Shown here: piece by piece, positions 344-63,412 of the stretch | Layout: every line of letters starts with the position of its first letter | Numbering within the stretch: the first letter of the stretch is position 1 | Sequence record: NC_050153.1 | Source of the DNA: Escherichia phage vB_EcoM-Ro157c2YLVW | Strand: one strand, 5' to 3' | Length of the DNA: 64,000 bases | Made by a program: the position numbers and the translations under genes | Notes under the pieces: generated by a model | What the model saw: only the letters and a program-made list of their open reading frames with translations | Databases searched by the model: none | Told to the model about the DNA's origin: nothing

Positions 344-394
344 AGTTACGGCCTCATGTACAGGTTTAACAACCTGCTACCCGCTGCTAAACGG

Positions 395-560
395 GTGGCA
401 GGACGTGACGGGGTTAGCAGACTGGCGTACATGAAACCAGCAGGCCGAAGCCTCCCCATCACGCCCCACCATAATTCGGGCGTAACGCGGTTTTACGGAC
501 ATAAAAATACCGCAATATCGGAAATCTGCGGTTGTCCGCATGTACATTCAGGCTGCTAAA
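395..560 (-). ncRNA. c4-like antisense RNA and leader region of the left immunity-I-like module (ends not defined)
   Basis: Non-coding leader nearly identical at DNA level to 39430..39644 in inverted orientation; contains one antisense site and two sense target sites that covary between the copies (cores near 357-360, 428-431, 541-544). Confidence 0.4.
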
Positions 561-643
561 CCCGGTCGCAGAATTTGCTACGACGGTGGAACTATAAGCC
601 TGAACGACGATGAGATCAATAGAGCCGTGTTCGATGGTAGGTT

Positions 644-3337: not shown

Positions 3338-3586
3338 TCAGTCAGCATTTAGTAGCAGAGCATTATCTATGATGATCTGCTCCCATTCTTCGAATGCCCG
3401 ATCGCGGACGCCCTGGGGAACACTGTTAGTTTTGAAATCGACGACCGTACGCCATTTCCCGTCCGGACGGTACATGCGCAGAGCTTTACTTCCCCCTTCC
3501 CTGCGCACCTCAACGTTATGCTTGTCAGCAAACTCTTGTAATGCTCGTAGCGTCCCATGCTTTACTGTGTAGTATCGCTTTTTCAA
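3338..3586 (-). CDS. Small protein (82 aa), possibly Lxc/Bof-like C1 co-repressor by size and position
   Basis: 82-aa ORF overlapping the upstream ORF by 4 nt, last gene of the darB-strand operon; assignment to Lxc rests on recalled length and synteny only. Confidence 0.4.
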   Translation of the reverse strand: MKKRYYTVKHGTLRALQEFADKHNVEVRREGGSKALRMYRPDGKWRTVVDFKTNSVPQGVRDRAFEEWEQIIIDNALLLNAD

Positions 3587-4023
3587 GTTTTCTCTCCAGC
3601 CTGTGCCAAGGCTTCAACTTCCAAATCGTAAGACTCAAACTCATAGTCCTGGTCGTCAACTTCTTCAGGCACTGGCAGTAAATGCCAGGCTGAGTATATC
3701 TGACCATTATCAAAACGCTCCTGGCTGTAGAGCGTCGCGGCTATGAGTGTTAGCGCCGGGCGGTCATAACGGTAAATTTTGCGAACGTCACGGTCAACGA
3801 GACGACCGAAATTACCATAACCGCGCTCCAGTAATAATTTTTTAATTTCCGGCCAGTATGGGCCATAGCTGCGGTACAGACGGGGATTTTTCAGTAATCG
3901 CCCGCGTAGCCCTGACAGGAAGAAATCAACGTATTCGTCTTCTGTCTTTCCTAACAACGCTGTACGGAGTACCGCTTCAAGATATGTTTTATTCGGTTTT
4001 ATTGTATCAGATAGTGTGGCCAT
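3583..4023 (-). CDS. Hypothetical protein (146 aa), possibly Ulx-like
   Basis: ORF starting 34 nt downstream of the darB stop, same strand; no motif recognised. Confidence 0.4.
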   Translation of the reverse strand: MATLSDTIKPNKTYLEAVLRTALLGKTEDEYVDFFLSGLRGRLLKNPRLYRSYGPYWPEIKKLLLERGYGNFGRLVDRDVRKIYRYDRPALTLIAATLYSQERFDNGQIYSAWHLLPVPEEVDDQDYEFESYDLEVEALAQAGEKT

Positions 4024-4056
4024 ATTATGCGACGCCCGGCGAACCGGGCGCTCCTG

Positions 4057-7000
4057 TTATGCGTATTGTTGGATGACGGCCAGAACGTCCGCCACGTTGT
4101 GTTTTGTCTCGATAATCCACCAGTTACCCGGGAAATCGCTGTTCTTTGCCTTCGCTGGCAGCCAGCGAGCGCCGAATTTCGCCTTGATTGCGTCTTTCGC
4201 ACGGAAAAGAATGCCTTTCATGCCTGAGGCTTCCTGAAGCCCAAATACCTCGCCAGCGGCGAATTTTGGTGCGTACATCATCTTCAGGTCGGCGGTGGAT
4301 ACGCGATAATTCAGACCAAGAGACTGAGCTATGCTGGTGGCATCACCCTGTATTGATGATAACTCTTCTTGTTTCTCGTTTCTGGCGGCAATTTCTTCCT
4401 CCGTGATGTTGCCAAGGGCTAGGTTTATCCGATCAGCGTCGGCCTGTTTCTCTTCATCGGTGCGCCCGGCAAGAACCGTGTTAATTCTCTGCAATATCTC
4501 AACATGATTCTTGCGCATGCTGAGCATTTCCGGCGTAACCTCGTTAAGATCCACCAGCCCAAGGATGGCAAGGTCAGTAAACATTGATACCAGGTTGTAG
4601 GTCATGCGATAGCTGAGTTGGCCATAGGCTGATGGCAACTGCACCGCATCCATTTTATAGGCATCCATAAATTTAGAGCCGTCGTTTACGACATCCGCAA
4701 TTGCCGGTGTGATTTTTCCTGTGGTGGCGGCCTCCCTGATTGCTGTTACCCACGATTGAGTCAGCGCGGCGACTGCATGATTCAGATTGGCTTTTCGTTC
4801 TGCTGCAATGCGCGCACTTGCTGCGTCCATTGCCTGCTTGATCTCGTCTTTATTGCTGTAAATGCCAATGGTGCCAAACTGTGCTGTGGTGATCTCATAA
4901 TCTGACGCCCGGAACTCATTGGTACCGAAAATGGCATTGGTGACTTCAAGTTCAGAATCCCCGTTACGAGTAGCCCCCTGGCTTGTTTTTTCCGGCATTC
5001 TGGCGATCGCCTCCGCTATTTTCTCCTGAATTGCTTCAGGGGATAGCGTATCTCCGTATGACGCGATTACATCGCCATAATTGGAGCCAAACAATTCAAC
5101 CAGGAATGTTTCTGCCGAACGGATCTGGCGGTTATTCCCTTCCGACATCATACCAAGCACCCATTTTGCAATTGACGACTTCAGCGCGCCGTCACGGCGA
5201 TCCGGGTAAACCGCATGCTTCAGTGGGTCCGTATAGGTACCAACAAAATCAATGCTATAGCCTGACTCTGTAGTCTGAACGCCGTATGAGTCAGTGATTT
5301 TGATCATGCCGCGCTGCTGGAAACGGTAGAAATCGTCACAGGAAATGATGTCGTTAATCCCGGCGATGGAGACGCCACCACTGATTTTCTGCATAACAGC
5401 ATCTTCATCAGGAGTTACATCAACCTGTTTATCCAGCGTCTTCACATCCCAGTTACCCGATTTGGTGCCTTTGAAGGTAAAGATGATCTCCACGTCTGCG
5501 CGCTGGCTGTCGAAGTCCAGCGACTTAATGCGAACGATATCACCGGCACAATCGTAGTATTGGCCTACACGCCATGAGCGATCGCCGATAACAAGGAACT
5601 CACTCGCATGGTTAACCAGATCAGGATCAACATCCAGAATGCCTTTATTTATTGCATCCTCCACCAGCGGGCGCAGGCGTTTGATATCCGTCGCGGCCTT
5701 CTGAGTACGGTTCAATAATTTCTCATAGCGGGAGATGGCCTGAGAGATATTAGCCTTGCGCTGAATGGCGCTTTTCAACGACGCGCGATACTGTGCTAAC
5801 AACGTACGGTCTGTGTGATGGACGCTACCCCAGCGGGCTTTCCAGTCTGCGTTATCAGCTGCTTTGGCCATTACCGCCTGTTTGAATTTAGCTACCTCGG
5901 CGGTGGTCTTTTCAAGTTCCGCTTTGCTTCGCTCTAATTCAGCGGTAAGTACCTCCACATCCTCGCCTGCTGCGTGCTGCGCCTTGATGTAGTTCTGAAG
6001 GTCGATAGTAGCCTGTTCTTTCTGGCGAGCGCGTTGCGCGGCTTTCGCCTTATCCATTTGAACCTGCATCATTGCCAGACGTTCGCCATCATCCTTAGCG
6101 GTATACATCTGCATTTCGATCATATCGTTGGCGTCGGCGTTCTCCATTTCAGACTTATCTGAGCGGAGGATATCGGAGATCCAGCCTGCTTTACGCTTCA
6201 GCGTCTTCAGTCGGTATTCATCGAAAGAACCCTTGCCGCAGTAGTAGTGAACGCGAACGCTTGCACGGTTGGAACCAACTCGGGCACCGCGACCGTTACG
6301 CTGTGCGATACTGGCTGGTGTCCATGGCAACGTCAGATGATGGATGTCAGTCGTTCCTCGATGCAGGTTGATACCCACCTCTGCCTTTTTGGTGCAGATG
6401 ATGATCGGAGTCCGGCCCTCCTGGAAGTCGGCAGCAATCTTTTCCAGCCCGCCCAGCGACATTTCATTTTGCTGCGCGATATAGGCGTCATACAGAGCCA
6501 TTTGCTCGTTGTATTTCGCTATCTGTGCATCTGTTGGTTCATCCGGTAGCTCTTTCGGCGGTTTAACCGCTTTCAGTTTCTTACCGGTTTTACCTGCCTC
6601 GGCAACCGTCTGAGCATTCAGGATCCCCACCTTTGAAGGTTCAAGGTTAAGAGCATTGCAGATAATGCGCTTGAGCTTCTGGTGTTGCGTTTTTTCATCG
6701 GTGAAGATGATTTGCTTCCCTTCCGGGAAAAACTCCTTCAGCGTGGCAATCAGCTTCGCGTATTTGGGCGTAACGGGGTGAGTTACGGTCTGTTCGTCAA
6801 TGCCAAACCTGGCCAGGCGCTTATTCACTTCCTGCTCAAATGCTTCCGGTACCTGCAACTGAATAAACTCGCCCTTATCTATCAGGGAGTATTGCGATTG
6901 CTGCGTGATAGAATCATCACTGTCGTCGTCTTCGCTGGTGGCTTGTTTAGGCAAACTGTCCGCCAGCTGCTGCACCGCATCGGCGTACTCCGGCAGGAAA

Positions 7001-25852: not shown

Positions 25853-26429
25853 ATTGCGGGGCGACTGGCCACTCAACATCCGCTGCTACTGCTGTATCAA
25901 CACGATTCAACAATACCCGATATGTCTTCCATGCAGTCAGTAACGATGCCTCTTCCTCCGTCGCAATATCCAAATCTACGGCATCCTGAAGTGGCGCAAT
26001 ATGCTCACTGGCCATCTGCATCAGGCTGTTTTTTGTTTCTTCCGCCTTCCGGATCCGGAACAGTTTTTCTGCTTCTGCATCTTTCACCCAGGCTGTGCCG
26101 TTCCACTTCTGAAACTCCCCTTCCGGGGATAACCAGGTGACATTTTCCGGTAATGGGCCAAGTTCAGAAATAAATAACGCGTCGCCGGAAGCCACGTCAT
26201 AGACGGTTTTTCCCCGATGGTCTTCAACGAGATTCCACGATGCCTCATCACTGTTGAAAACGGCCACGAAGCCAGCCGGAATATCTGGCGGGGCAATATC
26301 GGTACTGTTTGCAGGCAGACCTGTATGAGGTGGAATGTATGCATCACCTTCACCAATAAACTCATTGGTTCCGGTCAGTAGATTATAAATTTTTATGGTC
26401 CGTGATTGTTCACTCATTCTGAATGTCAT
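25851..26429 (-). CDS. Tail fibre assembly chaperone (Tfa-like, 192 aa)
   Basis: Located immediately downstream of the tail fibre gene, size and acidic composition typical of Tfa/U proteins; start overlaps fibre stop. Confidence 0.6.
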
Positions 26430-39339: not shown

Positions 39340-39429
39340 AGTCGCGAATGCTATCTTTTCGCATCATATTGACCTTTTAATCGTTCAGGCTTATAGTTCC
39401 GCCGTCGTAGCAAATTCTGCGACCGGGTT

Positions 39430-39644
39430 TAGCAGCCTGAATGATTGTGCGGACAGCCGCAGATATCCGATATTGCGGTATTTTTGTGTCCGTAAAACCG
39501 CGTTACGCCCAAATTATGGTGGGGCGTGATGGGGAGGCTTCGGCCTGCTGGTTTCACAATCGCCAGTCTGCTAACCCCGTCACGTCCTGCCACCTGTTTA
39601 GCAGCGGGTAGCAGGTTGTTAAACCTGATTGTGAGGCCGTAACT
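39430..39644 (+). ncRNA. c4-like antisense RNA and leader of the right immunity-I module (ends not defined)
   Basis: Antisense element tcacaatc (about 39555-39561) complementary to gattgtg at about 39443-39449 and at about 39627-39633, the latter lying 12 nt upstream of the icd ATG over the putative Shine-Dalgarno; UUCG-tetraloop hairpin aggcttcggcct nearby. Confidence 0.45.
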
Positions 39645-41893: not shown

Positions 41894-42739
41894 ATGCTGG
41901 CTAAAGTCACTTTCCTGAGCTGTATAACGATGAGCGATTTTACTTTTTCTGGCTATGAATTGGCCTGCTTTGTAACACACTCCGGTCTATCCCGTAGCGC
42001 CGGGCATATCCTGTCGCAATGTGCAAATCTCGCGGCAACAACCAGTGAATACTTCATTCACAAGCCTCACCGCCTGATCGCGGCAGAAACTGGTTATAGC
42101 CAATCAACCGTCGTTCGTGCATTCCGTGAAGCTGTAAACAAAGGAATCCTGTCTGTAGAGATTGTTATCGGCGATCACCGTGAACGTCGCGCTAACCTGT
42201 ACCGGTTTACACCATCCTTTTTGGCCTTCGCACAACAAGCCAAAAATGCGCTGATTGAAAGCAAATTAAAGATCTCTTCAGCGGCAACCAAGGTTAAAGC
42301 TGTTCTCGCTAAGACATTGGCTTTATTTAATTTTTTATCCACACCCCCATGTCAAAATGATACCCCCTCCCCCTGTCAGGATGACGTGGCAATAAAGAAT
42401 AAGAAGTCACAAGTTAAAAAAACAAAAAGATCAGTTTCCGGCGGTGCCGGAACGAGCAGACTCAAAAAATTGACTTCATGGATCGCTGAGGCAAAAGCAA
42501 AGGCTGACAATCTGCGGTTATCCAAAAAACGCGCTCAAAAACATGAGTTCAAGCAGAAAGTAGAGGCGGCAGCGCGGAAATATGCTTACCTGAAGGACAA
42601 GCGTTCTCCTGATATTGGCGGGATATCAAACTTCGATAATCTGCCGCATTGCATGACGGTAAACGAAGCTCTTAATGCGGTTTTAGCCAAAAATAAAGAT
42701 AACGAACAATGGGGTATACCGGCAGGATTCAGAGGGTGA
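41894..42739 (+). CDS. repL: RepL-like lytic replication initiator (281 aa)
   Basis: Position directly after kilA, 281 aa as recalled for P1 RepL; helix-turn-helix-like segment QSTVVRAFREAVNKGIL. Confidence 0.55.
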   Translation: MLAKVTFLSCITMSDFTFSGYELACFVTHSGLSRSAGHILSQCANLAATTSEYFIHKPHRLIAAETGYSQSTVVRAFREAVNKGILSVEIVIGDHRERRANLYRFTPSFLAFAQQAKNALIESKLKISSAATKVKAVLAKTLALFNFLSTPPCQNDTPSPCQDDVAIKNKKSQVKKTKRSVSGGAGTSRLKKLTSWIAEAKAKADNLRLSKKRAQKHEFKQKVEAAARKYAYLKDKRSPDIGGISNFDNLPHCMTVNEALNAVLAKNKDNEQWGIPAGFRG

Positions 42740-42789
42740 TAGATTGCTCTAATCTGGAGTCACCTGGCGTTTTCAGTTTGAGGTCGGAG

Positions 42790-43035
42790 ATGCAATCTGA
42801 TTTTTTACAGTTAGCGATCGCTTTTGCAGGATATGTTTGTATTGGCTTCTGTGTATACATGATCAGCCGAAAAATGCTTGTCGATATCGACCGCAAAGAA
42901 CAAGCAGAGGAGATCTTAGTATGGATTTTCTTTGGCGCGGTCTGGCCATTAGGGATCATGTTTGCTGCAACATTTCTTCTGATGTGGATATTCACCCTTC
43001 CAGGTGATTTCTATAGAAAAAAAGCCAGACATTGA
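42790..43035 (+). CDS. Small integral membrane protein (81 aa)
   Basis: Two hydrophobic helices; ATG at 42790 with ggaga upstream. Confidence 0.4.
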   Translation: MQSDFLQLAIAFAGYVCIGFCVYMISRKMLVDIDRKEQAEEILVWIFFGAVWPLGIMFAATFLLMWIFTLPGDFYRKKARH

Positions 43036-43124
43036 TACAATCGTTGCGGGTGCTTGAGGCTATCTGCTTCAGGCATTACCCGAAAAGCAGATAGAAGAAA
43101 GCCCCAGATAACATTACGCGTCCT

Positions 43125-43195
43125 GCAAGACGCTTAACATTAATCTGAGGCCACATCTATGCTTAGCATACGTAGATTAGCCTCTTACCGACCAA
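43125..43195 (-). ncRNA. Predicted Sok-like antisense RNA (position inferred, not demonstrated)
   Basis: By analogy with hok/sok, the antisense RNA covers the mok initiation region; the 5' tac element (gcttgaggct at about 43048) and 3' fold-back region (about 43385-43430) of the hok mRNA are recognisable. Confidence 0.3.
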
Positions 43196-43365
43196 AAGGT
43201 CAAGGAGAAGCAGGCTATGAAGCAGCAAAAAGCGATGTTAATCGCTCTGATCGTCATCTGTTTAACCGTCATTGTGACGGCACTGGTAACGAGGAAAGAC
43301 CTCTGCGAGGTACGAATCCGAACCGGCCAGACGGAGGTCACTGTCTTCACAGCCTACGAATCTGA
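43159..43365 (+). CDS. mok: Mok-like overlapping reading frame of the hok locus
   Basis: ORF overlapping the hok-like gene in another frame, as in hok/mok/sok loci. Confidence 0.45.
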   Translation: MLSIRRLASYRPKGQGEAGYEAAKSDVNRSDRHLFNRHCDGTGNEERPLRGTNPNRPDGGHCLHSLRI

Positions 43366-43369
43366 AAGG
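43217..43369 (+). CDS. hok: Hok/Gef-family type I toxin (50 aa)
   Basis: Translation MKQQKAMLIALIVICLTVIVTALVTRKDLCEVRIRTGQTEVTVFTAYESER, close to E. coli HokD/RelF as recalled; below the 60-aa cutoff of the ORF track. Confidence 0.8.
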
Positions 43370-43446
43370 TAAGAGACCTGGCGGGGAGAGATCCCCGCCA
43401 CTCTTCGTGTGTCAGGTATCCTCAATGCACCCTTTCCTCTCCAAAT

Positions 43447-43472
43447 AAAAAAGCTCCCGAAGGAGCTTTAAA
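43447..43472 (-). terminator. Rho-independent terminator after the minus-strand tail operon
   Basis: On minus strand: hairpin gctccttcgggagc followed by tttttt. Confidence 0.6.
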
Positions 43473-43488
43473 ATACAAGGGATTACTA

Positions 43489-43998
43489 TTAATCCCACTC
43501 AATCCAGTTGTAGACGATACGAAGTGACGGGCGCACAGCGGCAGTCACATCTTCGGTACTAAAGTCGATTGCATCACTGTAGATTTTGCAGTCCAACATT
43601 TCAATTGTTGTAGCAGCTTTTGTCACAGCGTTAACCCCGGAAGATTTGGATTCAGGGGTAGCAGCCATCGTGATATCAACATAGTCCTTCGCCGCAATGC
43701 GATCCTTGATGAACTGAAGAATATCGCCTTCGATAGTCTCCACGCACTGGACCTGGATTTCCCCAGAGTTTCGAATTGGTCCGTGCTGGTTGAACTTCAC
43801 ACCATTCGGACCATAGTCCTCCACATCCTCGCGGGTCATTTCAGGAATTTGCGACGTGCGAACCAGTACGCTGATATCTTCATGGCCTGCAACAGTGAGC
43901 TGGAATTCAGAAGATACCAGTCGTTCGCCTTTGGCCGCGTTGGCAGTATAGCGGCCCTTAATAAATTTACGGTTTCCCTTAGTGTTATTGTGCCCCAT
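43489..43998 (-). CDS. Virion structural protein (169 aa)
   Basis: ORF in sheath-containing operon. Confidence 0.4.
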   Translation of the reverse strand: MGHNNTKGNRKFIKGRYTANAAKGERLVSSEFQLTVAGHEDISVLVRTSQIPEMTREDVEDYGPNGVKFNQHGPIRNSGEIQVQCVETIEGDILQFIKDRIAAKDYVDITMAATPESKSSGVNAVTKAATTIEMLDCKIYSDAIDFSTEDVTAAVRPSLRIVYNWIEWD

Positions 43999-61157: not shown

Positions 61158-61232
61158 GATGGTGTAGCTCAGCGGTAGAGCAGTTGGCTGTTAACCAACT
61201 GGTCGGTAGTTCGAATCCACCCACCATCGCCA
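61158..61232 (+). tRNA. tRNA-Asn (anticodon GTT)
   Basis: Cloverleaf with 7-bp acceptor GATGGTG/CACCATC, anticodon stem GTTGG/CCAAC, loop CTGTTAA, T-loop TTCGAAT, encoded CCA. Confidence 0.85.
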
Positions 61233-61237
61233 CTTTA

Positions 61238-61324
61238 GGGGAGTTAGTCCGTAGGGGTAGCGGGGTAGACTGTAAATCTACTGTCATTGCGACTCGGGTG
61301 GTTCGACTCCATCACTCCCCACCA
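61238..61324 (+). tRNA. tRNA-like gene, class II, reading as tRNA-Tyr (anticodon GTA), atypical D-arm
   Basis: Acceptor GGGGAGT/ACTCCCC, anticodon stem GTAGA/TCTAC with loop CTGTAAA, long variable arm with GTC/GAC stem, T-arm GGTGG-TTCGACT-CCATC, encoded CCA; the D-stem cannot be drawn canonically. Confidence 0.5.
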
Positions 61325-61328
61325 CATT

Positions 61329-61404
61329 GCCGATTTAGCTCAGTTGGTAGAGCAGTCGCTTTGTAAGCGAATGGTCAGCGGTTCGATCCCGTTAATCGGC
61401 ACCA
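61329..61404 (+). tRNA. tRNA-Thr (anticodon TGT)
   Basis: Acceptor GCCGATT/AATCGGC, D-arm GCTC-AGTTGGTA-GAGC, anticodon loop TTTGTAA, T-loop TTCGATC, encoded CCA. Confidence 0.85.
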
Positions 61405-62135
61405 ACATAACAGGTAAGAGCATTCTCCCTTATGGGGCCTGGCTTAAATGCATCGAGTGCTCTTACCGTTGTGATGAAGTGCAGATCTTAGAAGCAACCA
61501 GAAGATAAGCATCTGGCTTCACAACATAAACCGCAGGAACGACCAATAAACGGTAGTCCGTATGGAGAACACCCCGTTGAGGAAGAGGCCTGGCCGGAAC
61601 CGTAACCGGCGACTGGTAATGTGTGTAAATGGAGCGAAATATGTGGGCGTTTAACGGGATACGGGTTGTAACAGCGATTATTAACGGCGAACTTAAGTAT
61701 TCACGTTTCGAGACAAATGAACGTGATGGGAAATGTATTGGTGTGCGGTTAGTAAGAGAATACGCATAACAACTACAACGTTGAGAACACTGGCGTAACG
61801 GGGTCATATCCCAATCTACGAATAAATGTTGCGTTGCCGCGTGACAACCAGTGTTCTCAACATTGTGGTGAATGCACAGGCTGATGTGCCGCAACTACAG
61901 TAGTGCGCGCTTTGCGGGGCTTGCTACAACCCTGTGTCGGAGTTCAGCACCGACCATCACAGTTTGATTCTCTGGCATGAGCATAACGCTGAAATAAGTC
62001 CAGTCTGGTGCGGTCTGATCACCCGCCGTTAGCTCCACGAAACGGAGCACGTAACAGGTAAGAGCATTCTCCTGTAACAATCTACAGGTCCACCAAGAAT
62101 GCTCTTTCCGTTGCGGTGAATGCGGCTAAGCGCAC
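61405..62135 (+). repeat. Three copies of a conserved hairpin-plus-tail element in a largely non-coding stretch
   Basis: Copies at about 61405-61495, 61775-61885 and 62050-62135: long stems (ggtaagagcattct / agaatgctctt; gttgagaacactgg / ccagtgttctcaac), each followed by GTTGYGRTGAAKGC. Confidence 0.4.
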
Positions 62136-62264
62136 GCGGGGAAATGGTTATATCTGTCCATTATTTCTCCTTGTTTCCACGTCCACGGTGGATAACCAGC
62201 CAAAGGACACCGGGAGGAACCCGGCACCGCAGCTTTTTTATTCGTTAAATAATGGAGTGAGAGG

Positions 62265-62501
62265 ATGCAGAACAATCCGAACAAATGTCGAACGCTATGG
62301 GTGCGGTTATATATTTATGCCGTCCTCTGTTTGATTGTGTCACTGGTTCTGTATGTTTGGCTTTTGCCAAATATGATCTCATCTAACAGCACAATACTTG
62401 TATTGTTGGGAGTCCTTCTCGCGCTCATTTACCCGGCTTTCGCAGTAGTCTTTTTTCGTGAAAAAACCAGGAAATTAATTAATGAAAAAAACGTTGATTA
62501 G
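62265..62501 (+). CDS. Small integral membrane protein (78 aa)
   Basis: Two hydrophobic helices; overlaps start of the next gene. Confidence 0.4.
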   Translation: MQNNPNKCRTLWVRLYIYAVLCLIVSLVLYVWLLPNMISSNSTILVLLGVLLALIYPAFAVVFFREKTRKLINEKNVD

Positions 62502-63309
62502 TGCAGCGATTATTTTGGGTTCTTTATGTCTGACCGGATGCGATCGGGTAGAGCCAGGTAACGTAGGGATCAAAGTAAATAAGCTGGGGGATGATAAAGG
62601 TATCGGTGAAGTAGTTGGCGTTGGTCGCTACTGGACAGGCTTGAATACTGAAGTTTATATCTTCCCGACCTTTAAGCAAATGAAGACATACGATGAGCCG
62701 TTCAGCTTCCAGATGAGCGACGGAACAACCATTGGTTACCACATCGGCGTAGCCTACAAGGTTGATCCAGCAAAAGTCACAACGGTATTTCAGACCTATC
62801 GCAAAGGTGTAGATGATATTACTGATACCGATCTACGCCAGAAGGTTGCAGATGCTCTGAACCGATTAGCCAGCAAAATGACCACCGACAAATTTATCGA
62901 CGGTGGCAAATCTGAATTGCTTGATGCAGCCCTTAAAGACATTCAGGAAGAAATGACGCCAATCGGCATTCAGGTGATGAGCCTCTCTTATGTAGGTAAG
63001 CCAGAATACCCGCCAACAGTTATTGACAGTATTAACGCCAAAGTCACGGCAAACCAAAAAACCCTGCAACGCGAGCAAGAGGTCAAACAACGTGAAGCAG
63101 AGGCCAACATGCTGCGCGCGGAAGCTGCCGGACAGGCTGATGCTATTCGCACAAAAGCCCAGGCCGAAGCTGATGCCATTCGTTTACGTGGTGAAGCTCT
63201 GCGCCAGAACCCCGGTGTTATGGACTTGGAAGCGATCAACAAATGGAACGGTACATTACCGCAGTATATGACCAGTAATACCGCTGTTCCGTTTGTTCCG
63301 GTGAAATAA
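62482..63309 (+). CDS. SPFH/band-7-domain lipoprotein (275 aa)
   Basis: Lipoprotein signal MKKTLISAAIILGSLCLTGC; C-terminal Ala/Glu/Arg-rich coiled coil typical of stomatin/prohibitin-like proteins. Confidence 0.6.
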   Translation: MKKTLISAAIILGSLCLTGCDRVEPGNVGIKVNKLGDDKGIGEVVGVGRYWTGLNTEVYIFPTFKQMKTYDEPFSFQMSDGTTIGYHIGVAYKVDPAKVTTVFQTYRKGVDDITDTDLRQKVADALNRLASKMTTDKFIDGGKSELLDAALKDIQEEMTPIGIQVMSLSYVGKPEYPPTVIDSINAKVTANQKTLQREQEVKQREAEANMLRAEAAGQADAIRTKAQAEADAIRLRGEALRQNPGVMDLEAINKWNGTLPQYMTSNTAVPFVPVK

Positions 63310-63336
63310 AAGCGTAAGCAAAATTGGCAGTAATCC

Positions 63337-63412
63337 GGCCCTTTAGCTCAGTGGTTAGAGCTGGCGACTCATAATCGCACGGTCACCGGTTCAAGTCCGG
63401 TAGGGGCCACCA
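63337..63412 (+). tRNA. tRNA with CAT anticodon, most like tRNA-Ile2 (lysidine type)
   Basis: GGCCCTT…AGGGGCC acceptor, anticodon loop CTCATAA, T-loop TTCAAGT; near-identical to E. coli ileX as recalled. Confidence 0.75.

What the first reader, a model, noticed from the sequence alone, without database searches (positions are those of the whole stretch)
43040..43440. hok/mok/sok-like type I toxin-antitoxin locus between the lytic replicon and the tail-sheath operon
A 50-aa Hok/Gef-family toxin gene (43217..43369), missed by the 60-aa ORF cutoff, overlaps a mok-like frame. The mRNA 5' element (gcttgaggct…) and a GC-rich 3' fold-back region resemble hok mRNA. A P1-type plasmid normally relies on phd/doc for addiction (not in this window), so this would be a second post-segregational killing or abortive-infection module.
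Basis: partly seen in the sequence, partly recalled or inferred. Interest (0 to 1): 0.55.

Follow-up and report, generated by a model that had tools for sequence, protein, structure and literature searches.

The report
Ordinary hok/sok toxin-antitoxin in P1-like plasmid

Summary
Window 43014-43470 carries an intact type I toxin-antitoxin cassette. The 51-aa Hok toxin (43217-43372) matches Pfam HOK_GEF at E 2.4e-22. The R1-style overlapping mok frame runs 43159-43365. The hok leader matches Rfam RF01794 at 114.8 bits (cut-off 59). An antisense Sok gene lies at 43167->43097 with its own promoter, and the 5' tac and 3' fbi elements pair in the minimum-energy fold (z -8.75). Across five diverged hok loci the structure keeps 88% of pairs, against 37-48% in slid controls. 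The cassette is about 88% identical to hokW-sokW of phage 933W/Sp5, which was shown experimentally to be a type I TA system. The same sequence is annotated 'hokD' or 'MokW' in hundreds of P1-like plasmid and phage records, and relatives occur in 4739 of 5426 complete E. coli genomes. Compared with canonical P1, a 693-bp segment (42754-43446) replaces rlfA-rlfB-pmgF, a published variable region. phd/doc is outside the window but is present on a near-identical plasmid. The most likely role is a second post-segregational killing module, and help with lysis at induction is a serious alternative. Novelty: already known. Interest: low.

The parts
42754..43446 (+). Segment that differs from canonical P1. 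These 693 bp (ORF81 plus the hok/sok cassette) replace P1 51586-53411, which holds rlfA, rlfB and pmgF.
   Evidence: blastn of the window against NC_005856 shows homology ending at 42753 and resuming at 43447. The P1 annotation is. rlfA-rlfB-pmgF is published variable region 5/E of P1-like phage-plasmids (PMC9603915).
42790..43035 (+). Neighbouring 81-aa hydrophobic ORF of unknown function (108 aa if read from the ATG at 42709). It lies in the replaced segment but is not part of the TA module.
   Evidence: ORF list. PGAP annotates the 81-aa form as a hypothetical protein. It matches PHROG 3772, unknown function, at E 3e-54, with no Pfam, NCBIfam or PADLOC hit. It occurs without the hok ORF in L012 and is partly deleted next to hok in L011.
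43014..43041 (+). hok/mok promoter: -35 TAGAAA, 16-nt spacer, extended -10 TGaTACAAT. The predicted +1 is at 43048.
   Evidence: Promoter scan. The +1 coincides with position 1 of the Rfam model. 933W has a -10-like TAGAAT at the same position. This is a consensus match only and has not been tested.
43048..43472 (+). Full-length hok mRNA (inferred ends).
   Evidence: MFE -168.7 kcal/mol against a shuffled mean of -115.4, z -8.75. Homology with 933W and with chromosomal hokD-type cassettes runs from about 43043/43045 to 43432/43435.
43048..43059 (+). tac (translational activator) element, GGGUGCUUGAGG, which pairs with fbi in the full-length mRNA.
   Evidence: MFE fold. Duplex of -21.0 kcal/mol with 43419-43433. 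Helix 1 is conserved in 5 loci, with a UA<->CG compensatory change.
43060..43094 (+). 5' leader hairpin (helix 2).
   Evidence: 100% of cells are paired across 5 loci, and 2 pairs changed on both sides.
43097..43167 (-). Sok antisense RNA gene, about 71 nt. It is complementary to the hok leader, including the mok SD (GAGG, 43146-43149) and the mok start (43159).
   Evidence: Coordinates transferred from the annotated sokW misc_RNA of 933W (L003 1554-1624) through alignment A1. The fold shows a single-stranded 5' tail, a long hairpin and a U-rich tail, at -33.2 kcal/mol, z -5.1.
43174..43203 (-). Sok promoter: -35 TTGACC (43203-43198), 18-nt spacer, -10 TAATCT (43179-43174).
   Evidence: Read from the minus-strand sequence. 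The -10 is homologous to the 933W TAACCT that Takada et al. mutated to make the 'pro-less' construct (primer YO-421). It fell below the threshold of the consensus scan.
43159..43365 (+). mok reading frame: 68 codons, SD GAGG 9 nt upstream, +1 frame relative to hok.
   Evidence: ORF list. The geometry matches R1-type mok, which starts at +116, has 70 codons and is in the +1 frame. There is no Pfam hit.
43217..43372 (+). hok toxin gene, 51 aa, SD GGAG at 43204-43207.
   Evidence: Pfam HOK_GEF E 2.4e-22. Identical to RefSeq WP_001313475.1 'HokD'. 47/51 identical to HokW, with all four changes in the C-terminal tail.
43204..43226 (+). hok SD and start codon, sequestered by pairing with 43340-43363 (helices 6-8).
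   Evidence: RNAalifold consensus and pair counts show 88-100% of cells paired and 3 pairs with compensatory changes.
43355..43358 (+). UACG motif at the Tyr47 codon (TAC GAA), the recognition motif for TadA A-to-I editing (Tyr to Cys).
   Evidence: Read from the sequence. The motif is invariant in all 5 aligned loci. Y-to-C recoding at this position in hokC/D/E-type genes is described in preprint 10.1101/2025.08.07.668861. Editing was not tested, and the local hairpin is not significantly stable.
43380..43399 (+). GC-rich hairpin GGCGGGGAGAGATCCCCGCC just 3' of hok. It contains GGGG-N6-CCCC, an insertion hot spot for IS186/IS421.
   Evidence: Helix 13. In pTetA_020022 a 1336-bp element, 99.6% identical to the IS421-bearing stretch of L013, sits here with a 12-bp duplication of 43384-43395.
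43420..43432 (+). fbi (fold-back inhibition) element, CCUCAAUGCACCC.
   Evidence: It pairs with tac. It marks the 3' limit of cassette homology in 933W and in chromosomal copies.
43450..43469 (.). Hairpin AAAGCTCCCGAAGGAGCTTT, the likely 3' end of hok mRNA. It belongs to the P1 backbone and is a good terminator only for the minus strand (bplB operon).
   Evidence: The scan calls it on the minus strand only. It lies in the region shared with P1 from 43447 onward and forms in the MFE fold. On the plus strand only 3 U follow the stem, so the hok 3' end is uncertain.

Best explanation
This is an intact hok/mok/sok type I toxin-antitoxin cassette of the hokD/hokW (prophage) subfamily, carried by a P1-like phage-plasmid in the variable slot between repL and bplB.

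Mechanism, inferred from the anatomy and from established knowledge of R1 hok/sok: a weak constitutive promoter (43014-43041) makes a stable hok mRNA of about 420 nt. Pairing of its 5' tac (43048-59) with its 3' fbi (43420-32), together with sequestration of the hok SD and start codon (43204-26 with 43340-63), keeps this mRNA translationally inert and closed to Sok. Slow 3' trimming removes fbi, the 5' end refolds, and the mok start region is exposed. While the plasmid is present, the short-lived Sok RNA of about 71 nt (43167->43097, with its own promoter at 43174-43203) pairs with the mok translation initiation region. This blocks mok translation, and therefore the coupled hok translation, and the duplex is cleaved by RNase III. 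When the plasmid is lost or sok transcription stops, Sok decays first and the mRNA pool is translated. The 51-aa Hok inserts into the inner membrane and kills the cell. Recoding of Tyr47 (UACG) to Cys by TadA may add a further gate.

Most likely biological role: a second post-segregational-killing (stabilisation) module of the low-copy plasmid prophage, alongside phd/doc.

Shown here: sequence membership, completeness of all elements, and conservation and covariation of the structure. Inferred: transcription, RNA half-lives, toxicity and the role.
For: - The toxin matches Pfam HOK_GEF at E 2.4e-22.
- The hok leader matches Rfam RF01794 at 114.8 bits, against a gathering score of 59.
- The full-length fold has z -8.75 and contains the tac-fbi pairing.
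- An equivalent 5'/3' duplex is found at the equivalent place in five diverged loci, including one that encodes the canonical R1 Hok peptide.
- In the consensus structure, 88.3% of cells are paired against 37-48% when partners are slid, and 18 pairs changed on both sides against 2-7.
- The Sok RNA fold is typical of the family, z -5.1, and its coordinates transfer from the annotated sokW.
- The mok geometry is the same as in R1.
- The cassette is about 88% identical in nucleotides, and 47/51 in residues, to hokW-sokW. For that locus, HokW toxicity, rescue by sokW, partial dependence on RNase III and Hfq, and inner-membrane localisation were shown (PMC8621323).
- Native R1 hok-sok causes killing after plasmid curing, with survival of 1.5e-2 (PMC10899753).
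- The locus sequence (801 bp) is 100% identical to pO111_2 and at least seven other P1-like plasmids where PGAP calls hokD.
- The junction across the IS hot spot is uninterrupted here.
Against: - Nothing in this work tests expression, toxicity or plasmid stabilisation.
- The Sok -10 (TAATCT) and the hok -35 (TAGAAA) are poor consensus matches, and the scan did not call the Sok promoter.
- The plus-strand terminator is weak, with only 3 U after the stem.
- Chromosomal hok loci of E. coli were reported unable to mediate PSK (cited in the preprint), and this cassette belongs to the chromosomal/prophage hokD-type clade rather than the R1 plasmid clade. It shares 28/51 residues with R1 Hok.
- For the closest characterised relative, the demonstrated role was help with phage release, not maintenance.
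- About half of the hok-bearing plasmids in PLSDB have the 3' region interrupted (448 against 226 records), so the module is dispensable.
- The covariation set has only 5 sequences, and the structure was derived from that same alignment.
Confidence: 0.85

Rival explanations
1. Lysis-assist module. As shown for hokW-sokW in the Stx2 phage Sp5, Sok disappears when the prophage is induced and Hok is made before holin and endolysin. Membrane damage then advances lysis and raises phage release. In this case the trigger could be read-through from the C1-controlled kilA-repL operon directly upstream. This is not exclusive of PSK.
For: The closest characterised homologue (about 88% nt, 47/51 aa) does exactly this: sokW is lost after mitomycin C, HokW production depends on RecA, and deletion halves phage yield (PMC8621323). 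The cassette belongs to the prophage hokD/hokW clade. It lies 300 bp downstream of repL on the same strand, with only a weak 5-bp terminator-like hairpin at 42992-43007 in between.
Against: There are no data for P1-like elements. P1 already has a full lysis set (lydA/B, lyz). Canonical P1 and P7 lack the cassette, and about half of carriers have it interrupted by an IS, so it is not needed for the lytic cycle. The trigger in Sp5 is itself unknown.
Confidence: 0.3
2. Phage-exclusion (abortive infection) module. Shut-off of host transcription by an infecting lytic phage depletes Sok, and Hok kills the cell before the phage completes its cycle.
For: R1 hok/sok on a high-copy plasmid reduced T4 plating efficiency by 42% and plaque size by about 85% (as summarised in PMC8621323). 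The mechanism needs nothing more than the elements found here.
Against: Hok has no hit in PADLOC-DB. A survey found that hok is not enriched near defence systems (preprint 10.1101/2025.08.07.668861, section heading). The reported effect was weak and seen at high copy, whereas a P1 plasmid is at about one copy per chromosome (own knowledge).
Confidence: 0.12
3. Functionally silent passenger. The cassette hitch-hiked into the variable slot by recombination with lambdoid prophages and, like the chromosomal hok loci, neither kills nor stabilises under natural conditions.
For: Chromosomal hokA/B/C loci failed to give PSK or rifampicin activation (cited). hokD-type cassettes are near-ubiquitous in E. 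coli, in 4739 of 5426 genomes. Decay is frequent in P1-like plasmids, through IS421/IS186 insertion, leader-only remnants and 3'-only remnants. Resident chromosomal Sok-like RNAs of the same clade, about 88-91% identical, could cross-neutralise it.
Against: Every regulatory element is intact here, and helices keep their pairing. Against hokW there are 6 synonymous and 4 non-synonymous codon changes, all of the latter outside the transmembrane and Cys30 region. HokW from its native locus is expressed and active. 42 of 45 diverse Hok peptides tested were toxic.
Confidence: 0.15

Closest known systems
hokW-sokW of Stx2 phages 933W and Sp5 (Sakai prophage 5)
   Same: The cassette limits are the same (mRNA +1 to fbi) at about 88% nucleotide identity over window 43043-43435. 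The tac sequence is identical, the Sok region is collinear, and 47/51 Hok residues match. Both sit on temperate phages of E. coli.
   Different: In 933W a 1-nt deletion puts the upstream ATG in frame with hok, so 'MokW' is an N-terminally extended Hok. Here mok is in the +1 frame, as in R1. Flanks, promoter -35 and terminator are unrelated. The host element is a plasmid prophage rather than an integrated lambdoid phage. No experiments exist for this allele.
hok/sok (parB) of plasmid R1, and flm of F
   Same: The architecture is the same: tac/fbi, 5' hairpin, mok in the +1 frame starting about 112-116 nt from the 5' end, hok SD sequestration, a GC hairpin after hok, and an antisense Sok with a 5' tail plus hairpin. 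Both are on low-copy plasmids.
   Different: Only 28/51 residues are identical. The leader is about 20-35 nt different in length (alignment A2). The tac/fbi sequences differ by compensated changes. PSK is shown for R1 but not for this locus.
hokD (relF) of the Qin prophage in E. coli K-12 and hokD-type cassettes of other E. coli chromosomes
   Same: PGAP names this gene hokD. Chromosomal copies are 88-91% identical over 43045-43432.
   Different: K-12 hokD matches only 43203-43432. It therefore lacks the leader, the mok start and sok, whereas this copy is complete.
phd/doc of P1
   Same: It is an addiction module of the same replicon type and is present on the near-identical pO111_2.
   Different: It is a type II protein-protein system in which Doc phosphorylates EF-Tu. 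It is unrelated in sequence and mechanism, lies outside the window, and is core to P1-like elements, whereas hok/sok is accessory.

Membership tests
[quoted passage not shown] | Small (about 50 aa) Hok/Gef toxin with an N-terminal transmembrane helix and a conserved Cys (PF01848). | tested here: met
   HOK_GEF E 2.4e-22, covering model positions 1-42 of 42. Cys30 lies in the DLCEV motif. PHROG 251 E 4.9e-32.
[quoted passage not shown] | Conserved hok mRNA leader (RNA family RF01794). | tested here: met
   114.8 bits against a gathering score of 59, full model 1-157, at 43048-43222. The hit is on the hok-sense strand and ends at the hok AUG, so it models the leader to which Sok is antisense.
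[quoted passage not shown] | Antisense Sok RNA gene with its own promoter, complementary to the mok translation initiation region. | tested here: met
   Homologous to the annotated sokW. The fold has z -5.1. A TTGACC-18-TAATCT promoter can be read from the sequence. The promoter is a weak consensus match that the scan did not call, and transcription was not tested.
[quoted passage not shown] | Overlapping mok reading frame whose translation is coupled to that of hok. | tested here: met
   68-codon ORF at 43159-43365, SD GAGG, +1 frame, the same geometry as R1. The coupling itself cannot be tested here.
[quoted passage not shown] | Long-range 5' tac / 3' fbi pairing that closes the full-length mRNA. 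| tested here: met
   Present in the MFE fold. Duplex of -21 kcal/mol. Conserved in 5 loci with a UA<->CG swap.
[quoted passage not shown] | Sequestration of the hok SD and start codon in the inactive mRNA. | tested here: met
   Helices 6-8 pair 43204-43226 with 43340-43363. 88-100% of cells are paired and 3 pairs are compensated.
[quoted passage not shown] | Toxicity of Hok, neutralisation by Sok, and differential RNA stability leading to post-segregational killing. | not testable with these tools
   Toxicity and neutralisation by the antisense RNA are shown only for homologues: hokW-sokW and R1 hok-sok.
hokD/hokW prophage subfamily | High nucleotide identity over the whole cassette and the HokD-like peptide. 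| tested here: met
   88-91.5% identity to Rac, 933W and chromosomal copies. RefSeq WP_001313475.1 is named HokD. The NCBIfam Hok subfamily model NF007279 scores 49.5 bits, below its cut-off of 73, and the HokA equivalog is also below cut-off, so the PGAP name does not come from an HMM.
P1-like phage-plasmid (Punavirus) backbone | Synteny and high identity with the P1 order c4-icd-ant-kilA-repL ... bplB-pmgG-21-22. | tested here: met
   97-99% identity to P1, P7, RCS47 and SJ46 on both sides of the slot. C4 RNA and tRNAs are present in the window.
Anti-phage defence (abortive infection) systems catalogued in PADLOC | Match to a defence-system protein model. | tested here: not met
   No PADLOC hit for Hok or for ORF81.

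The most novel reading that the evidence does not exclude
Because the cassette sits directly downstream of the C1-repressed kilA-repL lytic-replicon operon and on the same strand, prophage induction could drive read-through transcription across the sok gene. This would supply extra Sok-target RNA and collide with the convergent sok promoter, depleting Sok and releasing Hok. That would make hok/sok a repressor-wired lysis or 'point-of-no-return' timer in P1-like phage-plasmids. It would also supply the missing trigger mechanism for the hokW-sokW effect seen in Sp5.
Probability: 0.12. Interest if true: 0.45.

Novelty: already known. Interest (0 to 1): 0.1.

Why it matters
It matters little as a discovery. 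The family is the textbook type I toxin-antitoxin system. The exact sequence is already annotated (hokD, MokW) in hundreds of P1-like plasmid and phage records, and a homologue about 88% identical has been characterised experimentally. The practical value is in annotation and context. This lineage of P1-like phage-plasmids, which are common carriers of resistance genes in E. coli and Salmonella, has two unrelated addiction-type modules, phd/doc and hok/sok. The second one occupies the rlfA-rlfB-pmgF variable slot and is frequently knocked out by IS186-family insertion. That could be relevant to plasmid-curing strategies and to understanding why these elements persist. In the library I could search, no paper discusses hok/sok in P1-like elements specifically, so a short experimental note comparing PSK with lysis-assist would still be new data.

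Tried and rejected
- The consensus promoter scan did not report a Sok promoter on the minus strand. I located it instead by homology to the experimentally mutated sokW -10.
- Pfam and NCBIfam searches of the Mok product found nothing. This is expected, because it is mok translation that matters, not the peptide.
- NCBIfam places Hok only below cut-off, so the PGAP name 'HokD' does not rest on an HMM equivalog.
- PADLOC gave no hit, which gives no support for filing the locus as a catalogued defence system.
- I tested whether the UACG (Tyr47) motif sits in a stable tRNA-Arg-like hairpin. The local folds are no better than shuffled sequence, so I claim only that the motif is present.
- I looked for a second hok copy or for phd/doc inside the window and found neither.
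- Literature searches for hok in P1-like phage-plasmids returned no dedicated description.
- The Gilcrease and Casjens 2018 D6 paper, which reviews accessory genes of P1-like prophages, is not held, so I cannot exclude that it mentions this locus.
- I considered that the cassette might be a decayed remnant like K-12 hokD. I rejected this because the leader, sok, mok, fbi and the IS hot-spot junction are all intact.
- I did not use the large protein-database, structure-prediction or metagenome tools, because nothing in the question depended on them.
Full report
**Observation**

The ORF at 43217-43372 (stop included) encodes a 51-residue peptide, MKQQKAMLIALIVICLTVIVTALVTRKDLCEVRIRTGQTEVTVFTAYESER. 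It matches Pfam PF01848 (Hok/Gef) over the whole model at E 2.4e-22, 78.7 bits against a cut-off of 22. It also matches PHROG 251 'MokW-like host killing' at E 4.9e-32.

A 68-codon ORF at 43159-43365 overlaps it in another frame. A gathering-threshold scan of the whole window against Rfam gives one hit to RF01794 'sok' at 43048-43222, with 114.8 bits (gathering 59) and E 2.2e-25, covering the full model. That hit is on the hok-sense strand and ends at the hok AUG. In practice it therefore recognises the hok mRNA leader, to which Sok is antisense.

There is only one Hok-like gene in the window, and there is no Phd or Doc.

- The peptide is 51 aa, not 50.
- The GC-rich hairpin (43380-43399) is not the fold-back element, which is at 43420-43432.
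- The locus extends beyond the given interval on both sides, to the promoter from 43014 and the terminal hairpin to 43469.

**Anatomy**

- *hok promoter.* A promoter-like site, TAGAAA-16 nt-TGaTACAAT, lies at 43014-43041. It would start transcription at about 43048, which is exactly position 1 of the Rfam model.
- *tac and fbi.* The first twelve bases, GGGUGCUUGAGG, are complementary to CCUCAAUGCACCC at 43420-43432. This pairing appears in the minimum-free-energy fold of 43048-43472, which has -168.7 kcal/mol against a shuffled mean of -115.4, z -8.75. A two-strand duplex calculation gives -21 kcal/mol.
- *Sok promoter.* On the minus strand the sequence reads TTGACC (43203-43198), an 18-nt spacer, then TAATCT (43179-43174).
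- *Sok RNA.* By alignment with phage 933W, where sokW is annotated as a misc_RNA, Sok corresponds to 43167->43097. It folds into a free 5' tail, a long hairpin and a U-rich tail, at -33.2 kcal/mol, z -5.1. It covers the mok Shine-Dalgarno sequence (GAGG, 43146-49) and the mok start (43159).
- *mok.* It starts 112 nt from the mRNA 5' end, is in the +1 frame relative to hok, and ends 7 nt before the hok stop. This matches the geometry in an IncF locus that encodes the canonical R1 Hok peptide, where mok starts at +116 and has 70 codons in the +1 frame. In 933W and in a hokC-like locus the equivalent ATG is in frame with hok.
- *3' end.* After the fbi comes a hairpin at 43450-43469. It belongs to the P1 backbone and is a convincing terminator only for the opposite strand. 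The 3' end of hok mRNA is therefore the least certain element.

**Family-level structure test**

I aligned the window mRNA with four other loci: 933W hokW, a hokC-like locus, a Klebsiella IncF hok and the R1-type IncF hok. The RNAalifold consensus recovers the following (coordinates mapped):
- the tac-fbi helix, with one UA<->CG compensatory pair;
- the 5' hairpin;
- a helix around the mok start;
- a long helix that pairs the hok SD and start (43204-43226) with 43340-43363;
- the GC hairpin.

Counting pairs gives 88.3% of cells paired, against 37-48% when the 3' partners are slid by 1-3 columns. Eighteen pairs changed on both sides, against 2-7 in the slid controls, and none of 500 shuffles reached the observed covariation score. 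The set is small and the structure was derived from the same alignment. This result therefore corroborates, rather than independently proves, the folding scheme that Gerdes and colleagues established for the family (own knowledge).

**What it is related to**

The 801-bp region 42700-43500 is 100% identical to pO111_2 of E. coli O111:H- 11128 and to at least seven other P1-like plasmids, where PGAP annotates 'hokD' (WP_001313475.1). In total 261 plasmid records cover at least 80% of it. Four records in the phage collection, including three named P1, carry it at 99.1-99.4%, and one of them (MH422554) annotates it as 'MokW'. The window is not pO111_2 itself, since the two are 99.1% identical over 8.8 kb.

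Outside P1-like elements, the cassette is 88-91.5% identical to copies in Rac, 933W/Sp5 and many Stx and lambdoid phages. Matches occur in 4739 of 5426 complete E. coli genomes, mostly on chromosomes, with sharply constant limits at 43045-43432. The K-12 hokD copy matches only 43203-43432, so it lacks the leader and sok.

The peptide is 47/51 identical to HokW. All four substitutions are in the C-terminal tail, and there are six synonymous codon differences. It is 28/51 identical to R1 Hok.

hokW-sokW has been studied directly by Takada et al. 2021 (PMC8621323):
- HokW is toxic.
- sokW expressed from its own promoter neutralises it, with partial dependence on RNase III and Hfq.
- HokW localises to the inner membrane.
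- After mitomycin C, sokW disappears and HokW is made in a RecA-dependent way.
- Deletion of the locus halves phage release.

**Genomic context**

Against canonical P1 (NC_005856), homology runs through repL to window 42753 and resumes at 43447. The 693 bp in between replace 1826 bp of P1 that hold rlfA, rlfB and pmgF. This is one of eight published variable regions of P1-like phage-plasmids (PMC9603915).

The replaced segment holds an 81-aa hydrophobic ORF of unknown function (PHROG 3772) followed by the hok cassette. The left breakpoint falls inside the C1 operator Orlf/Op55. P1 has ATTGCTCTAATTATAAC there, and the window has ATTGCTCTAATctggag.

phd/doc are present on pO111_2 at 88147-88748, outside the part that corresponds to the window, and are described as core genes of P1-like elements. 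For this exact replicon, the presence of phd/doc is inferred and not seen.

**Population variants**

These variants show that the copy in this window is the intact form. Of the plasmid records that match 43040-43475, 448 cover at least 80% of it. Only 226 have an uninterrupted 43350-43449 junction, and 516 carry repL.

- *IS-interrupted.* In pTetA_020022 a 1336-bp element, 99.6% identical to the IS421-bearing stretch of another plasmid, is inserted in the GC hairpin, with a 12-bp duplication GGGAGAGATCCC at 43384-43395. The hairpin contains GGGG-N6-CCCC, the known IS186 target (own knowledge). IS186 downstream of hokC/gef in K-12 is reported to separate the fbi from the gene (PMC3562002).
- *Leader-only.* Other plasmids, and phage RCS47, keep only the leader and sok part up to about 43185, followed by an unrelated 198-aa gene on the other strand.
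- *3'-only.* Others keep only the 3' remnant next to IS421.

The counts are approximate, because not every matching record is a P1-like plasmid.

**Mechanism and role**

The anatomy fits the canonical hok/sok mechanism step by step, as set out under Best explanation. What I have shown is membership, completeness and structural conservation. Transcription, RNA half-lives, processing, toxicity and the biological role are inferred from R1 hok/sok and from hokW-sokW.

For the role, I rank the options as follows:
1. Plasmid stabilisation by post-segregational killing is first. The element is a low-copy plasmid, and native R1 hok-sok kills after curing (PMC10899753).
2. Help with lysis at induction is a strong, non-exclusive second. 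It is the only role shown for the closest relative, and the cassette lies just downstream of the C1-controlled lytic replicon.
3. Phage exclusion is less likely.
4. A silent passenger state is also less likely.

A further known layer may apply. The Tyr47 codon sits in a UACG motif (43355-43358) that is invariant in all five aligned loci. That is the TadA editing motif reported to recode Tyr to Cys in hokC/D/E-type genes (preprint 10.1101/2025.08.07.668861). I could not show a stable local hairpin there.

**Verdict**

The finding is correct and well supported, but it is an ordinary, already annotated member of a textbook family in a known variable region. Novelty is 'already known' and interest is low (0.1). 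The most novel reading not excluded is that the cassette is wired to prophage induction by read-through from the repL operon. I give that about 12% probability.

Noticed in passing
window 391-597 (minus strand) and 39391-39597 (plus strand): There are two immI-type c4 modules (Rfam C4 plus c4-a1b1 targets) in inverted orientation, 96% identical over 230 nt. They differ in two 4-nt blocks that are complementary within each copy: target ATTG with C4 loop CAAT in the canonical copy, against target TACA with loop TGTA in the second copy. This looks like a compensated specificity switch of the P1/P7 heteroimmunity kind, so the replicon appears to carry both antisense specificities.
   Followed up: partly
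window 43380-43399; L011 (NZ_CP032890.1) 3357-4692; L013 (NZ_CP080135.1): The GC hairpin just 3' of hok (GGGG-AGAGAT-CCCC) is an IS186/IS421 insertion hot spot. In pTetA_020022 a 1336-bp IS421-like element sits there with a 12-bp target duplication (43384-43395), separating hok from its fbi. By search counts, roughly half of the hok-bearing plasmids are interrupted here (448 against 226 records). This parallels IS186 next to hokC in K-12.
   Followed up: partly
L005 (phage RCS47) 3437-3610; L012 (NZ_CP059910.1) 2501-2647: Some P1-like elements keep only the hok promoter, leader and sok portion (up to window 43185). In RCS47 it still scores above the Rfam gathering score (68.5 bits). The toxin gene is replaced by a 198-aa ORF on the opposite strand. 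Whether these toxin-less sok remnants still make an antitoxin RNA that could neutralise related hok loci was not examined.
   Followed up: partly
window 42737-42753: The left recombination breakpoint relative to P1 lies inside the C1 operator Orlf/Op55. The conserved left 11 bp (ATTGCTCTAAT) are kept and the right 6 bp are replaced. Whether C1 still binds there, and so controls ORF81 and any read-through into hok, is unknown.
   Followed up: no
window 42790-43035 (or from 42709): An 81-aa hydrophobic ORF (PHROG 3772, unknown function) lies between repL and hok. Its stop codon overlaps the extended -10 of the hok promoter. It has no Pfam, NCBIfam or PADLOC hit, and it varies independently of hok among P1-like plasmids.
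   Followed up: partly
L003 (933W) 1616-1828 compared with window 43159-43372: In 933W a 1-nt deletion relative to the window (GGTCAAGG becomes GGCAAGG) puts the upstream ATG in frame with hok, so the annotated 'MokW' is an N-terminally extended Hok. In the window, mok is a separate +1-frame ORF as in R1. The two closely related cassettes therefore differ in how the leader ORF relates to the toxin.
   Followed up: yes
window 25888-26086 (minus strand): There is a strong full-length Rfam hit to IS009 (RF02111), at 192.7 bits against a gathering score of 117. In pO111_2 the corresponding position is roughly the intergenic stretch between a holin-family gene and a serine O-acetyltransferase gene. 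I did not examine it.
   Followed up: no
window 61158-63409: Rfam scores four tRNA genes here (three clustered at 61158-61401 and one at 63337-63409). From memory, canonical P1 is described with three. Anticodons were not determined.
   Followed up: no
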